Below are positions 41,962-56,237 of a stretch of DNA of 64,000 nucleotides, piece after piece. This stretch comes from a virus (Duplodnaviria; Caudoviricetes), in the IMG/VR virus record IMGVR_UViG_3300028410_000746; one strand, 5' to 3'. The notes beneath the pieces were generated by a model that ran no database searches, was not told where the DNA came from, and saw nothing but the letters and a program-made list of their open reading frames with translations. A program made the translations under genes and the position numbers. Each line of letters begins with the position of its first letter. The stretch's first letter is position 1.

Positions 41962-41978
41962 GGTCAAACTCCAGGGTG

Positions 41979-42068
41979 GGGGACATCCCCGCTCGCGCGG
42001 GGAACACCGCAGGTAGTGGGCCTCGTCGCAGATGATGACCGGAACATCCCCGCTCGCGCGGGGAACAC
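41979..42068 (-). CRISPR. Type I-E mini-array 2: 2 repeats, one 32-nt spacer
   Basis: Leader-proximal repeat GTGTTCCCCGCGCGAGCGGGGATGTTCCG (42068-42040), close to the E. coli I-E repeat; trailer repeat 42007-41979; spacer 42008-42039. Confidence 0.93.
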
Positions 42069-42089
42069 TCTTCAAATGTTCAGTATACC

Positions 42090-42102
42090 TAACTCCTTGA
42101 TT
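42090..42102 (-). promoter_or_regulatory. IHF consensus site in the array-2 leader
   Basis: AATCAAGGAGTTA is an exact WATCAANNNNTTR match, 21 nt from the first repeat. Confidence 0.7.
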
Positions 42103-42191
42103 CATAAGAGGAATCCTGTTGGCATAGGGTGCGTCGGTTTACTTTACCAAATCGTACCCTGTGGTACAAGCTCCCAAGAGCGACTAAGCGG

Positions 42192-42221
42192 ACCTTACTA
42201 CAAGCTCTCTCCGGCTGTCAA
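42192..42221 (-). promoter_or_regulatory. Sigma70-type promoter of array 2
   Basis: TTGACA-N18-TAAGGT. Confidence 0.65.
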
Positions 42222-54608: not shown

Positions 54609-54742
54609 TGTGCGGTCAAGAGGTTAGAAGTGCTTATATATCAGATGCCTCTACCAGTTGGGCTACGTCGCTATAGGCGCGACGGCGGGGCTCGAACCCG
54701 CAACACTCCGATTCCGTTAAAGCTCTTCAAGCAGACCGCACA
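54609..54742 (-). ncRNA. YrlA-like Y RNA (Y1)
   Basis: Terminal stem TGTGCGGTC/GACCGCACA with Ro-site-like GGTC(T)G/TTGACC; ATCGGA/TCTGAT stem; T arm GCGGG-TTCGAGC-CCCGC; loop-closed acceptor CGTCGC/GCGACG; D arm TAGCCCAACTGGTAGAGGC. Confidence 0.75.
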
Positions 54743-54882
54743 TACGGACCGAGGGAGTCGAACCCTCGCGTTTAGACCTCGCCAGGAGTTTTTTAGTACC
54801 TTGGGGTCGCCCGTATCTCGTCTTTCCGAGATGTCACCGCAAGAATTTTGGTCTGAGTACCTACCAACCTTGCGGAATCCGT
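54743..54882 (-). ncRNA. tRNA-like RNA A with an insert of about 70 nt replacing the anticodon loop
   Basis: Acceptor ACGGATT/GGTCCGT+A, D-like TCCGCAAGGTTGGTAGGTAC, stem AGACC/GGTCT, T arm GAGGG-TTCGACT-CCCTC. Confidence 0.55.
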
Positions 54883-55279
54883 AGGTACCCCCCAGCGTCT
54901 GGTCTTGCTGGACCTCTCCAGGAGGTGCGAGGAACTCCCTGAGCATCCCGTCTCCCAACAACAATGGCAAGAGGGTTCCTCATCCTGGAGGGTGGTGTTT
55001 GAAGCTGGGTCAAGTTTGCGTAGCCAGGGTGCAAGCCACGTCTCTCAACGGGGCAAGTTTTGGATAACCCGAGCTACATCAGACCCAGCTTCAAGCTGGT
55101 CCGGCCGGAGCCGGTAGAAAGCTTCCCGGTCAAGGTAGCGTAGGAGGGTATCCCCCAGCCCAACCCAGACCCACTCTCGCAGGTAGGGCTCGACATGGGG
55201 GTTTCCAGTAACCCTGCCTACATCAGACCGGAAAGAGGTGTCGCAGATGCGGTGTGGTCGCGAAGGGAACGGAAGGGAA

Positions 55280-55308
55280 GGGACCATCCCCATGTGCGTG
55301 GGGAATCG
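55280..55308 (-). CRISPR. Solitary type I-E repeat unit 2
   Basis: CGATTCCCCACGCACATGGGGATGGTCCC; no partner repeat nearby. Confidence 0.7.
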
Positions 55309-55500
55309 ATCGAGTTACCATCTCTCCCACCCGCTAGAAGCCCCCTCGGTGAAGCCCGAGACCTCCCTCCGGGTATGAACCGGAGGGTGTGCTGATTACA
55401 CCAGAGGCACCGTGTCACCTCAAGGGTAACTTCGGCAGGACCTCTCCACGCACTTTGCAGTGCCTACCTTTGCTGATATCCGCGACAGGTAGTAATCCAG

Positions 55501-55657
55501 TGCTCCGTTCTGGACTTGCACCAGACCTTCCCGCAGACCTCTCCACCAAAGAAGAGAGATGAGGGGCGTGCCTCTAAAGGTACTCGGCGCTTCATCGGAG
55601 GATCTAAAGACCCGTCCATTTCCGTCGCCTCGTACGCCAACACTTTCGGAACAGAAC
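55501..55657 (-). ncRNA. tRNA-like RNA B with a large insert
   Basis: Acceptor GTTCTGT/ACGGAGC+A, D-like TCCGAAAGTGTTGGCGTAC (similar to RNA A), T arm TCTGG-TGCAAGT-CCAGA. Confidence 0.5.
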
Positions 55658-55720
55658 GTTCGATCAAGAGAGCGACGAGGAAGATTTTTGCGGTAATCCT
55701 CGTCAGCAGATCGAACGTAG

Positions 55721-55792
55721 TAGGGTCGGTGGGGATTGAACCCACGACCATCTCGGTGTAAACGAGGCGCTCTCCCACTGAGCTACGACCCT
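55721..55792 (-). tRNA. tRNA-Val(UAC)
   Basis: Cloverleaf with loop TTTACAC, A73. Confidence 0.93.
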
Positions 55793-55877
55793 AAGAGTCT
55801 TTCGAGCAAAGAATGTGCAGTTGCCGGGGGGTATCGTTTGGGGATAACCCAGCGTTCGCGGGCAGCTCGGAAGACAG

Positions 55878-55950
55878 CAGGACGCCGGGGAATCGAACCC
55901 CGATACTCGGATTTGGAAACCAAGCGGATCAGCCATTACCTCAACGTCCC
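55878..55950 (-). tRNA. tRNA-Trp(CCA), atypical D arm
   Basis: Loop TTCCAAA, T31-T39 mismatch, G73, T arm CGGGG-TTCGATT-CCCCG. Confidence 0.75.
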
Positions 55951-56164: not shown

Positions 56165-56237
56165 AGCGACTGGCGAGACTCGAACTCGCTATCTCCTCGT
56201 TGGAAGCGAGGTGCCCTGCCGGTTGAGCTACAGTCGC
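56165..56237 (-). tRNA. tRNA-Gly(UCC)
   Basis: Cloverleaf with loop CTTCCAA, U73. Confidence 0.95.

What the first reader, a model, noticed from the sequence alone, without database searches (positions are those of the whole stretch)
54609..54742. YrlA-like Y RNA with no Ro60 gene in view
Seen: the 3' half of a tRNA (anticodon-stem strand, variable loop, perfect T arm) precedes the 5' half (acceptor strand, D arm). The acceptor stem is closed by a GCCTATA loop, and the anticodon stem extends into a 9-bp terminal helix with GGUC(U)G/UUGACC. Known: this is the topology of bacterial YrlA Y RNAs, which usually lie next to ro60/rsr and tether Ro60 to effectors such as PNPase. No TROVE ORF is in this window. 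Inference: it may hijack a host Ro60 or act as a tRNA decoy.
Basis: partly seen in the sequence, partly recalled or inferred. Interest (0 to 1): 0.78.

Follow-up and report, generated by a model that had tools for sequence, protein, structure and literature searches.

The report
Phage Y RNA with permuted tRNA body
This 134-base stretch in a 373-kb lake-water phage encodes a YrlA-type Y RNA, a tRNA look-alike on a long stem; the class has been known in bacteria and phages since 2014, but here it is one of six related RNAs in a tRNA operon with no gene for the usual partner protein, Ro60, in the quarter of the genome I could inspect.

Summary
The order is anticodon-stem strand, 5-nt variable loop, T arm, a 6-bp acceptor stem sealed by GCCUAUA, U8-A9, D arm, then the other anticodon-stem strand. 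A 9-bp inner helix and a 9-bp terminal helix follow, with GGUC(U)G facing CUUGACC.

Rejoining the halves in silico gives an ARAGORN tRNA call; the native order gives none. Rfam YrlA is the best family match (33.2 bits) but lies below its gathering score of 69.

The core, including the acceptor-stem and loop sequence, resembles unannotated YrlA-like RNAs of mycobacteriophage Phabba and of IMG/VR phages. Five of those sit directly beside a TROVE (Ro60) gene.

The element is one of six paralogous Y-like RNAs within 1.4 kb. Earlier notes of this scan on the same genome already listed this scaffold family and a sibling element.

No TROVE gene lies in the window, nor in the further stretch of the ~96 kb of the 373-kb genome I could view. 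The rest could not be searched.

Verdict: a real YrlA-class Y RNA and a new member of a known kind. It most likely binds a Ro60 that is phage-encoded elsewhere or host-encoded. Moderate interest.

The parts
54734..54742 (-). Terminal (lower) helix, 5' strand UGUGCGGUC; ends in the GGUC of the putative Ro60 site
   Evidence: 9 perfect pairs with 54609-54617
54729..54733 (-). 5' junction UGCUU: bulged U, then a G that can wobble-pair with a U of CUU
   Evidence: C|UG is invariant in all six paralogs
54720..54728 (-). Inner helix, 5' strand GAAGAGCUU
   Evidence: centroid
54707..54712 (-). Anticodon-stem analogue, 3'-half strand AUCGGA
   Evidence: centroid; pairs with 54640-54645
54702..54706 (-). 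Variable loop GUGUU (U48 can pair with A15)
   Evidence: sequence reading
54685..54701 (-). T arm GCGGG-UUCGAGC-CCCGC
   Evidence: T stem paired in 100% of cells over 18 sequences, 3 of 5 pairs with compensatory changes
54666..54684 (-). Acceptor stem closed into a hairpin, CGUCGC-GCCUAUA-GCGACG
   Evidence: stem and loop resemble Phabba's CGUCGU-UCCUAGA-GCGGCG
54647..54665 (-). U8 A9 and D arm GCCC-AACUGGUAGA-GGC (D-stem variant shared with L132 and L049)
54640..54645 (-). Anticodon-stem analogue, 5'-half strand UCUGAU
   Evidence: centroid
54627..54635 (-). Inner helix, 3' strand AAGCACUUC
   Evidence: centroid
54609..54626 (-). 3' junction UAACCUCUU and terminal helix 3' strand GACCGCACA (CUU|GACC motif)
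54460..54590 (-). Paralog Yb: second YrlA-type RNA, with a V arm and a UUCG-sealed acceptor stem
   Evidence: RF02553, 27.1 bits
54999..55094 (-). Paralog Yc: stem-bulge Y-like RNA without a tRNA body; GGUCUGAUGUAG ... GGGUUAUCC ... AACUUGACC
   Evidence: z -5.2; RF01656, 22.8 bits
55122..55235 (-). Paralog Yd: stem-bulge Y-like RNA
   Evidence: z -4.2; RF01656, 18.5 bits
55656..55718 (-). Paralog Ye: short stem-bulge Y-like RNA (GAUC|UG ... CUU|GAUC)
   Evidence: z -4.1
55797..55875 (-). Paralog Yf: stem-bulge Y-like RNA (GAGC|UG ... GGGUUAUCC ... CUUU|GCUC)
54743..54883 (-). Upstream tRNA-like RNA: 7-bp acceptor pairing and a T arm, not called as a tRNA. Its 3' end abuts the first base of the Y RNA and may supply the processing site for the Y RNA's 5' end

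Best explanation
The element is a YrlA-class Y RNA gene.

How it probably works:
- It is probably co-transcribed with the neighbouring tRNAs and five paralogous Y-like RNAs as part of a protein-free RNA operon on the minus strand.
- Its ends are probably cut out by tRNA-processing enzymes. Its 5' end abuts the 3' end of a tRNA-like structure.
- The RNA folds into an L-shaped tRNA mimic that has no anticodon loop and no free acceptor end. A roughly 30-bp interrupted stem carries this mimic.
- The base of the stem (GGUC, bulged U, G / CUUGACC) is the docking site for a Ro60/Rsr ring protein. That protein would be encoded either in the unseen three quarters of the phage genome or by the host.
- By analogy with bacterial and phage Ro60-Y RNA particles, the RNA would tether Ro60 to an effector such as PNPase or a tRNA-handling enzyme, for RNA surveillance or tRNA repair during infection.

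Shown here: the fold, the homology to Ro60-linked RNAs, and the paralog family. Inferred: transcription, processing, Ro60 binding and the downstream function.
For: - Permuted tRNA body: in-silico rejoining gives a tRNA call, the native order gives none.
- RF02553 YrlA is the best Rfam match, full length 1-114, at 33.2 bits.
- BLAST finds only the unannotated YrlA-like RNA of mycobacteriophage Phabba (84% over 56 nt). That phage encodes a TROVE protein 37 kb away.
- In IMG/VR, 15 closed-acceptor YrlA-like RNAs were found. Five (L132, L125, L034, L102, L057) lie directly upstream of a TROVE gene on the same strand.
- L132 and L049 share Ya's unusual D arm.
- Over 18 sequences, 95.5% of cells pair. 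The T stem (3 of 5 pairs) and the acceptor hairpin (6 of 6 pairs) show compensatory changes. Slid controls give 36-47%.
- Six paralogs within 1.4 kb share C|UG ... CUU|G at the helix base, while helix positions 6-9 covary. A generic scan recovers all six there, about six weaker matches in the rest of both strands of the window, and no further scaffold copy in the 60 kb of flanking loci.
- Paralogs Yc and Yd align end to end with the nematode stem-bulge RNA family RF01656 through GGUC(N)G, GGGUUAUC and AACUUGACC. These RNAs are Y RNA homologues (PMC4726728).
- Ro60-adjacent L057 and L102 carry UGGUGUAG and UGGCGUAG where Yc and Yd carry UGAUGUAG.
- Chen et al. 2014 (PMC4201824) give GGUCCGA as the Ro60-contacted motif.
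- Ya is not a recent copy of any tRNA in the 160 kb seen.
Against: - The score is under Rfam's gathering cut-off (33.2 against 69).
- The bacterial GNCGAA motif is not present as such.
- No TROVE gene lies within the usual 4 kb, nor within about 96 kb of contiguous genome. Neighbouring unannotated proteins are not Ro60-like.
- Two IMG/VR virus records that CheckV rates complete carry YrlA-like RNAs but have no TROVE or vWA_Ro60 match. A Ro60 gene in cis is therefore not obligatory, and Ro60 dependence is not proven.
- The RF01656 matches would not be significant in a whole-window search.
- The acceptor-hairpin covariation is partly circular, because hairpin pairing was my inclusion criterion.
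Confidence: 0.6

Rival explanations
1. A Ro60-independent tRNA mimic. The shared stem is the handle for a different, unidentified phage or host protein. The sealed tRNA body acts as a decoy or recruiter for enzymes that recognise the tRNA elbow (RNase P, TruB, Dus, CCA-adding enzyme, tRNA-directed defence nucleases).
For: No TROVE in 96 kb. Complete-rated viral records G002 and G007 carry YrlA-like RNAs without TROVE or vWA_Ro60. The genome invests heavily in tRNA biology: many tRNAs, amber suppressors and two Pth2-type genes.
Against: The helix-base motif is the one linked to Ro60 in the literature (PMC4201824, PMC4726728). The same junction words occur in RNAs that sit directly beside TROVE genes. 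With no anticodon loop and no free 3' end, the RNA cannot act as a decoy for anticodon nucleases or for aminoacylation-directed toxins.
Confidence: 0.22
2. Cis-acting processing or stability structures of the tRNA operon, or an evolutionary relic of tRNA-gene rearrangement with no function of its own in trans.
For: The element lies between tRNAs with no promoter-like or terminator-like site of its own on the minus strand. It abuts a tRNA-like structure. The acceptor loop GCC-UAUA looks like a discriminator plus CC, as expected if the RNA arose from two tandem tRNA copies (inference).
Against: All tertiary-contact bases of a tRNA are kept. The core is homologous to RNAs in unrelated phages, including the loop. 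Six paralogs keep a conserved junction with covarying distal stems. There is no similarity to neighbouring tRNAs beyond 20 nt of T arm.
Confidence: 0.12
3. A circularly permuted tRNA gene that is matured (circularised and re-cut) into a working, decoding tRNA, as in some algae.
For: The two halves together make a complete tRNA body.
Against: There is no anticodon loop, because the anticodon stem continues into further helices. The acceptor stem has 6 bp and is sealed by 7 nt. No bulge-helix-bulge site is present, and the known pathway is eukaryotic or archaeal. Homologues sit beside Ro60 genes.
Confidence: 0.02

Closest known systems
YrlA (Rfam RF02553; Chen, Sim, Wurtmann, Feke & Wolin 2014, PMC4201824), especially the mycobacteriophage type
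   Same: Order of parts: stem strand, variable region, T arm, closed acceptor stem, D arm, stem strand. tRNA tertiary-contact bases are kept. A CCUA-type acceptor loop. The 5' and 3' ends pair into a long stem with a Ro60-type motif near the 5' end. Closest sequence relatives are Phabba L001:5996-6065 and IMG/VR L132 and L049.
   Different: Scores 33 bits against a cut-off of 69. Has no V arm; instead it has a 5-nt variable loop and a clean 6-bp anticodon-stem analogue. Carries GGUC-U-G instead of GNCGAA. Lies in a tRNA operon and not within 4 kb of a Ro60 gene. Is one of six paralogs.
Metazoan Y RNAs and nematode stem-bulge RNAs (RF01656; review PMC4726728)
   Same: The lower stem has a single bulged pyrimidine after GGUC, facing CUUGAC, with extra bases on the 3' strand. 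The sibling RNAs Yc and Yd also share GGGUUAUC and align end to end with RF01656.
   Different: Those RNAs have no tRNA-like body. The scores are below threshold, and the similarity may be convergence on the Ro60 site. The bulged base is U here, C there.
Thermus phage phiLo Ro60 with Yrl1 and Yrl2 (PMC12135203)
   Same: Phage-encoded Y-like RNAs with a stem-bulge-stem layout. They are proposed to assemble Ro60 with host PNPase.
   Different: There the RNAs lie just upstream of the phage Ro60 gene and carry CGAA. Here no Ro60 gene is in view.
Circularly permuted tRNA genes of Cyanidioschyzon merolae and other algae
   Same: The 3' half of a tRNA is encoded before the 5' half.
   Different: Those mature into decoding tRNAs with an anticodon loop and free ends. 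This RNA has neither.

Membership tests
YrlA (RF02553) | Score at or above Rfam's gathering cut-off (69 bits) | tested here: not met
   33.2 bits, full-length alignment 1-114; E 7.9e-5 in a 2.2-kb search and 5.7e-6 in a 161-nt search. The T, acceptor and D parts align well; the outer stems do not.
YrlA (RF02553) | tRNA-like domain in permuted order: T arm, then a stem-loop in the place of the acceptor stem, then D arm | tested here: met
   In-silico rejoining gives an ARAGORN tRNA call. Covariation over 18 sequences.
YrlA (RF02553) | Conserved tRNA tertiary-interaction bases, including a G15:C48 or A15:U48 Levitt pair | tested here: met
   U8, A14, A15 with U48, G18 G19, A21, G53-C61, U54 U55 C56 and A58, read. 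Criterion from PMC4201824.
YrlA (RF02553) | GNCGAA(N)G motif near the 5' end, the proposed Rsr contact | tested here: inconclusive
   Ya has GGUC-U-GC and, further in, UUGAAG. Sibling Yb has GAUC-U-GAAUG, which is the motif with one inserted U. This is closer to the vertebrate GGUCCGA quoted in PMC4201824.
YrlA (RF02553) | 5' and 3' ends pair into a stem that closes the molecule | tested here: met
   A 9-bp perfect terminal helix plus a 9-bp inner helix. Every IMG/VR homologue has its own closing helix of unrelated sequence.
YrlA (RF02553) | Encoded within 4 kb of a Ro60/TROVE gene on the same strand (the criterion of Chen et al. 2014) | tested here: not met
   No TROVE among window ORFs. tblastn with Phabba Ro gives nothing below E 4. 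None in the flanking loci.
YrlA (RF02553) | Bound by Ro60/Rsr; carries tRNA modifications; cut by RNase P | not testable with these tools
   No RNA runs hold the sequence. Biochemistry is needed.
Metazoan-type Y RNA / sbRNA (RF00019, RF01656) | Match to the family model | tested here: not met
   Ya has no hit to either family. Siblings Yc and Yd hit RF01656 at 22.8 and 18.5 bits, under the cut-off of 38. RF00019 gave no hit.
Functional tRNA / permuted tRNA gene | Anticodon loop, and a 7-bp acceptor stem with a free 3' end | tested here: not met
   No tRNA call by ARAGORN or RF00005. The anticodon stem continues into helices, and the acceptor stem is sealed.

The most novel reading that the evidence does not exclude
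A huge phage carries a self-contained battery of six Y RNAs, two of them with tRNA bodies, but no Ro60 gene of its own. The RNAs keep a Ro60 docking site that, at the level of sequence words, is nearer to the animal and nematode Y RNA site than to the bacterial one. They act by capturing the host's Ro60 and redirecting it, for example towards repair or clearance of tRNAs damaged by host defences, or they work through a different, unknown ring protein.
Probability: 0.22. Interest if true: 0.7.

Novelty: new member of a known kind. Interest (0 to 1): 0.45.

Why it matters
Y RNAs and Ro60 are conserved from bacteria to humans, and what the tRNA-like body of YrlA does is still unknown.

This locus offers three things:
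- A natural series. One stem scaffold occurs six times, twice loaded with different tRNA bodies and four times empty, so the roles of handle and cargo could be separated.
- A broader picture of where these RNAs occur. Together with Phabba, L044 and L104, the locus shows that YrlA-type RNAs recur inside phage tRNA arrays, far from any recognisable Ro60 gene or without one. The original survey excluded this class by design, because it kept only hits within 4 kb of Ro60.
- A link to animal Y RNAs. The sequence words shared with animal and nematode Y RNAs (GGUC-N-G, GGGUUAUC, CUUGACC) bear on whether bacterial, phage and animal Y RNAs share one Ro60 recognition code.

None of this changes the class. 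The element is another member of it.

Tried and rejected
- **Whole-genome Ro60 search: not possible.** No genome is held for the window, and the 373,477-bp ENA record cannot be searched.
- **Protein searches with Ro60 queries: inconclusive.** I queried with Phabba Ro and L132 Ro. The 120 best hits of each held no protein whose longest contig is 373,477 bp. This says nothing about absence.
- **Walking the contig.** This added about 32 kb of view without TROVE. One look-up failed on a start-codon difference. I stopped because the remaining look-ups could not cover the other 277 kb.
- **Natural variants for covariation: none.** The JGI and Logan copies are identical, and the contigs of runs X1 and X2 are identical where they cover the region.
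- **Expression.** No RNA holder was listed.
- **Close relatives through neighbouring proteins.** The 409-aa protein and the amber-gated Pth2-like protein gave nothing in viral contigs. An exact 42-mer gave nothing, and megablast of 20 kb against GenBank phages gave nothing.
- **Scaffold word pattern in viral contigs.** GGTCTGATGTAG...CTTGACC gave 3 hits, all chance matches with no flanking pairing and no tRNAs.
- **Hidden Ro60-like neighbour: rejected.** The 409-aa upstream protein is ParB/DndB-like, the 535-aa protein belongs to a zinc-ribbon family, and the 339-aa protein is beta-propeller-like. PHROGs gave nothing informative.
- **False positives removed from the IMG/VR set.** L093, L020, L042, L124 and L059 are tandem tRNAs with complementary acceptor strands.
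- **Promoter and terminator scan.** No sites on the minus strand within the RNA operon.
- **Simple motif pairing over the whole window.** GGTCNG...TTGACC is common by chance, so the motif alone proves nothing without the flanking helix.

Full report
**Where the element lies.** All tRNA genes of the window are on the minus strand: 51742-51814 (anticodon CUA), 54322-54395 Ala, 55720-55792 Val, 55877-55950 Trp and 56165-56237 Gly. The finding lies in a 1.9-kb stretch between them that has no credible ORF.

The window belongs to a 373,477-bp contig from a lake-water metagenome, ENA ERZ27315555 k141_181878. Identical copies occur in a JGI sample and in one SRA run. It is a huge phage. The window holds tail-fibre-like giants, an SNF2 helicase, Pth2, a histidine kinase and CRISPR repeats.

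**The observation.** Read on the minus strand, 54742-54609 has the following layout:
- a 9-bp perfect terminal helix, UGUGCGGUC / GACCGCACA
- a 5' junction UGCUU facing UAACCUCUU
- a 9-bp inner helix with one A.A mismatch
- an internal loop
- a 6-bp anticodon-stem analogue, AUCGGA / UCUGAU
- a 5-nt variable loop
- a canonical T arm
- a 6-bp acceptor stem sealed by GCCUAUA
- U8 A9 and a D arm

The RNAfold centroid recovers every helix except the weak D stem. ARAGORN calls no tRNA in the native order. When I placed the 5' half before the 3' half with any 7-nt loop, it called a 76-nt tRNA.

It is not the tandem-tRNA artefact that Chen et al. warn about (PMC4201824). No tRNA flanks it, and its two flanks pair with each other.

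**What it is.** RF02553 (YrlA) is the only meaningful Rfam match: full length, 33.2 bits, E 5.7e-6 in a 161-nt search. This is under the gathering score of 69. The sibling at 54476-54573 scores 27.1 bits.

BLAST against 50,697 GenBank phage records finds only mycobacteriophage Phabba, at 84% over the T arm, acceptor hairpin and D arm. There the match lies in an unannotated 143-nt gap of the tRNA array. It scores 40 bits for YrlA, and the phage's TROVE gene is 37 kb away.

A pattern scan of IMG/VR for a T loop, 16-24 nt, then a D arm gave more than 117 loci. Most are tandem tRNAs. Fifteen have a sealed acceptor hairpin and closing flanks.
- For five of them (L132, L125, L034, L102, L057), a TROVE gene lies directly downstream of the RNA on the same strand.
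- For L044, which lies in a tRNA array, the TROVE gene is 21 kb away.
- Two records that CheckV rates 100% complete have neither TROVE nor vWA_Ro60, while the positive control G004 scores 1e-65. These are G002 (L104, 168.9 kb with terminal repeats, in a tRNA array) and G007 (L049, 86 kb).

L132 and L049 share Ya's unusual D arm almost base for base, and L049 also shares its V-arm-less layout.

An 18-sequence alignment of the cores gives 95.5% paired cells against 36-47% for slid partners. Compensatory changes occur in 3 of 5 T-stem pairs and in all 6 acceptor-hairpin pairs. The acceptor result is partly circular, because I selected for a hairpin. Ya, Phabba and L099 share even the acceptor-stem sequence, and Ya and Phabba share the loop type (GCCUAUA, UCCUAGA). 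That points to common descent, not an independent rearrangement. Nothing in the 160 kb of this phage that I could read resembles Ya beyond 20 nt of T arm.

**The terminal helix and the paralog family.** Close variants do not exist in the data. The locus, however, holds six paralogs on the minus strand: Yf 55875-55797, Ye 55718-55656, Yd 55235-55122, Yc 55094-54999, Ya, and Yb 54590-54460.
- All six have a closing helix of 9-13 bp.
- The last five pairs are conserved (CG-R-UC / GA-Y-CG, with R-Y covarying).
- Positions 6-9 differ and stay paired.
- The helix is always followed by U-G on the 5' side and preceded by C-U-U on the 3' side.

A generic scan for this layout recovers all six within 1.4 kb, about six weaker matches in the rest of both strands of the window, and no further scaffold copy in 60 kb of flanking loci. 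Yc, Yd and Ye fold far better than shuffles (z -5.2, -4.2, -4.1). An earlier first-reader note of this scan (e1-5364525) had listed the same six copies. I re-derived them independently.

Each IMG/VR homologue also has its own closing helix of unrelated sequence. The terminal helix is therefore supported at both the paralog and the family level.

**Link to Ro60.**
- Chen et al. give GNCGAA(N)G as the bacterial motif and GGUCCGA as the vertebrate motif contacted by Ro60.
- The review PMC4726728 describes the vertebrate site as a 7-bp helix with one bulged C and a bulge on the opposite strand.
- The six RNAs have GGUC/GAUC/GAGC, one extra U, then G, facing CUUGACC or a close variant (CUUGAUC, CUUGUUC, CUUUGCUC).
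- Yb reads GAUC-U-GAAUG, which is the bacterial motif with one inserted U.
- Yc and Yd align end to end with the nematode stem-bulge RNA model RF01656 through GGUC(N)G, GGGUUAUC and AACUUGACC (22.8 and 18.5 bits; E 0.014 and 0.18 in a 266-nt search). These scores are sub-threshold and would not survive a window-wide correction.
- The Ro60-adjacent RNAs L057 and L102 carry UGGUGUAG and UGGCGUAG at the place where Yc and Yd carry UGAUGUAG. L044 carries UGAUGG where Yb carries UGAAUGG.

I take this as moderate evidence that the scaffold is a Ro60 handle.

**Is there a Ro60 gene?** None is in the window:
- Pfam on all ORFs of 400 aa or more, and on most mid-size ORFs, found none.
- tblastn with Phabba Ro found nothing below E 4.
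- Neighbouring unannotated proteins are ParB-like, zinc-ribbon and beta-propeller-like.

Walking the contig extends the TROVE-free view to record positions 329,565-373,477 plus 1-52,081. This is about 96 kb, or 26% of a circularly permuted genome. The other 277 kb could not be searched, and two protein searches were uninformative. Earlier notes of this scan on other genomes describe Y-like RNA arrays beside Ro60-like proteins that Pfam does not always recognise. 'No TROVE' in G002, G007 or here is therefore not proof of 'no Ro60-like protein'.

**Mechanism.**
- Shown: a stable fold, homology to Ro60-linked RNAs, and a six-member family in a tRNA operon.
- Inferred: co-transcription with the tRNAs, since no promoter-like or terminator-like site lies on the minus strand.
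- Inferred: a 5' end made by cleavage at the 3' end of the abutting tRNA-like RNA, 54883-54743.
- Inferred: binding of a Ro60 orthologue at the helix base, and use of the tRNA body to bring Ro60 to tRNA-handling factors or PNPase. Precedents are RYPER in D. radiodurans and the phiLo Ro60-Yrl-PNPase complex (PMC4726728, PMC12135203).

I put 0.60 on the Ro60 model, 0.22 on a Ro60-independent tRNA mimic, 0.12 on a cis element or relic, and 0.02 on a decoding permuted tRNA.

**Novelty.** Y RNA-like RNAs with tRNA bodies are known in bacteria and in 22 phages (PMC4201824). Phage Ro60-Y RNA particles have been studied structurally (PMC12135203), and TROVE proteins are noted in some jumbo phages (PMC7824862). 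This element is a new member of that kind.

Its less ordinary features:
- the tRNA-operon setting
- the lack of a nearby Ro60 gene
- the absence of a V arm
- the bulged-U form of the site
- membership in a six-copy scaffold family

The same scan has already reported the sibling Yb as a YrlA-type RNA and has found similar arrays beside Ro60-like genes in other phages.

Noticed in passing
window 54743-54883 (-) and about 55501-55657 (-): Two tRNA-like RNAs with a 7-bp acceptor pairing and a good T arm but large inserts where the D and anticodon arms should be. Neither ARAGORN nor RF00005 calls them. The first ends exactly where the Y RNA begins.
   Followed up: partly
window 54997-55240 (-): Yc and Yd share GGUC(U)GAUGUAG, GGGUUA(U)C and CUUGACC with the nematode stem-bulge RNA model RF01656 (sub-threshold, full-length alignments). 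This is an unexpected word-level likeness between phage and animal-type Y RNAs.
   Followed up: partly
window 41962-42194 (-): Two copies of a type I-E-like CRISPR repeat (GTGTTCCCCGCGCGAGCGGGGATG), about 60 nt apart: a small phage-borne array.
   Followed up: no
window 51742-51814 (-); L133:2614-2687: Two tRNA genes with the amber-reading anticodon CUA in a genome that otherwise reads as standard code. An ATG-TCG-TAG-gated Pth2-like ORF lies at 53586-53963 (-).
   Followed up: no
L104:1100-1260 (IMGVR_UViG_3300017917_002605); also L099, L118, L077: A subgroup of phage YrlA-like RNAs carries ACAGCAAC just after the 5' arm of the closing helix. L104 sits in a tRNA array of a 168.9-kb phage genome with terminal repeats and no TROVE or vWA_Ro60 match.
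   Followed up: partly
L049:4515-5177 (IMGVR_UViG_3300024265_000039): A 660-nt non-coding stretch after a DUF7873 gene. It holds the RNA most like Ya, plus further T-arm-like and D-arm-like pieces. No tRNA is called there, and the record (rated complete) has no TROVE.
   Followed up: partly
window 55250-55640 (-) and 54884-54995 (-): Further GC-rich, ORF-free sequence between the Y-like RNAs, with repeated GGAGAGGUC words and long hairpins. Nothing in Rfam matches it.
   Followed up: no
window coordinates versus ENA record: Window positions 1-35,400 map to the end of the 373,477-bp record, and later positions map to its start. The assembly is therefore circular or circularly permuted.
   Followed up: partly
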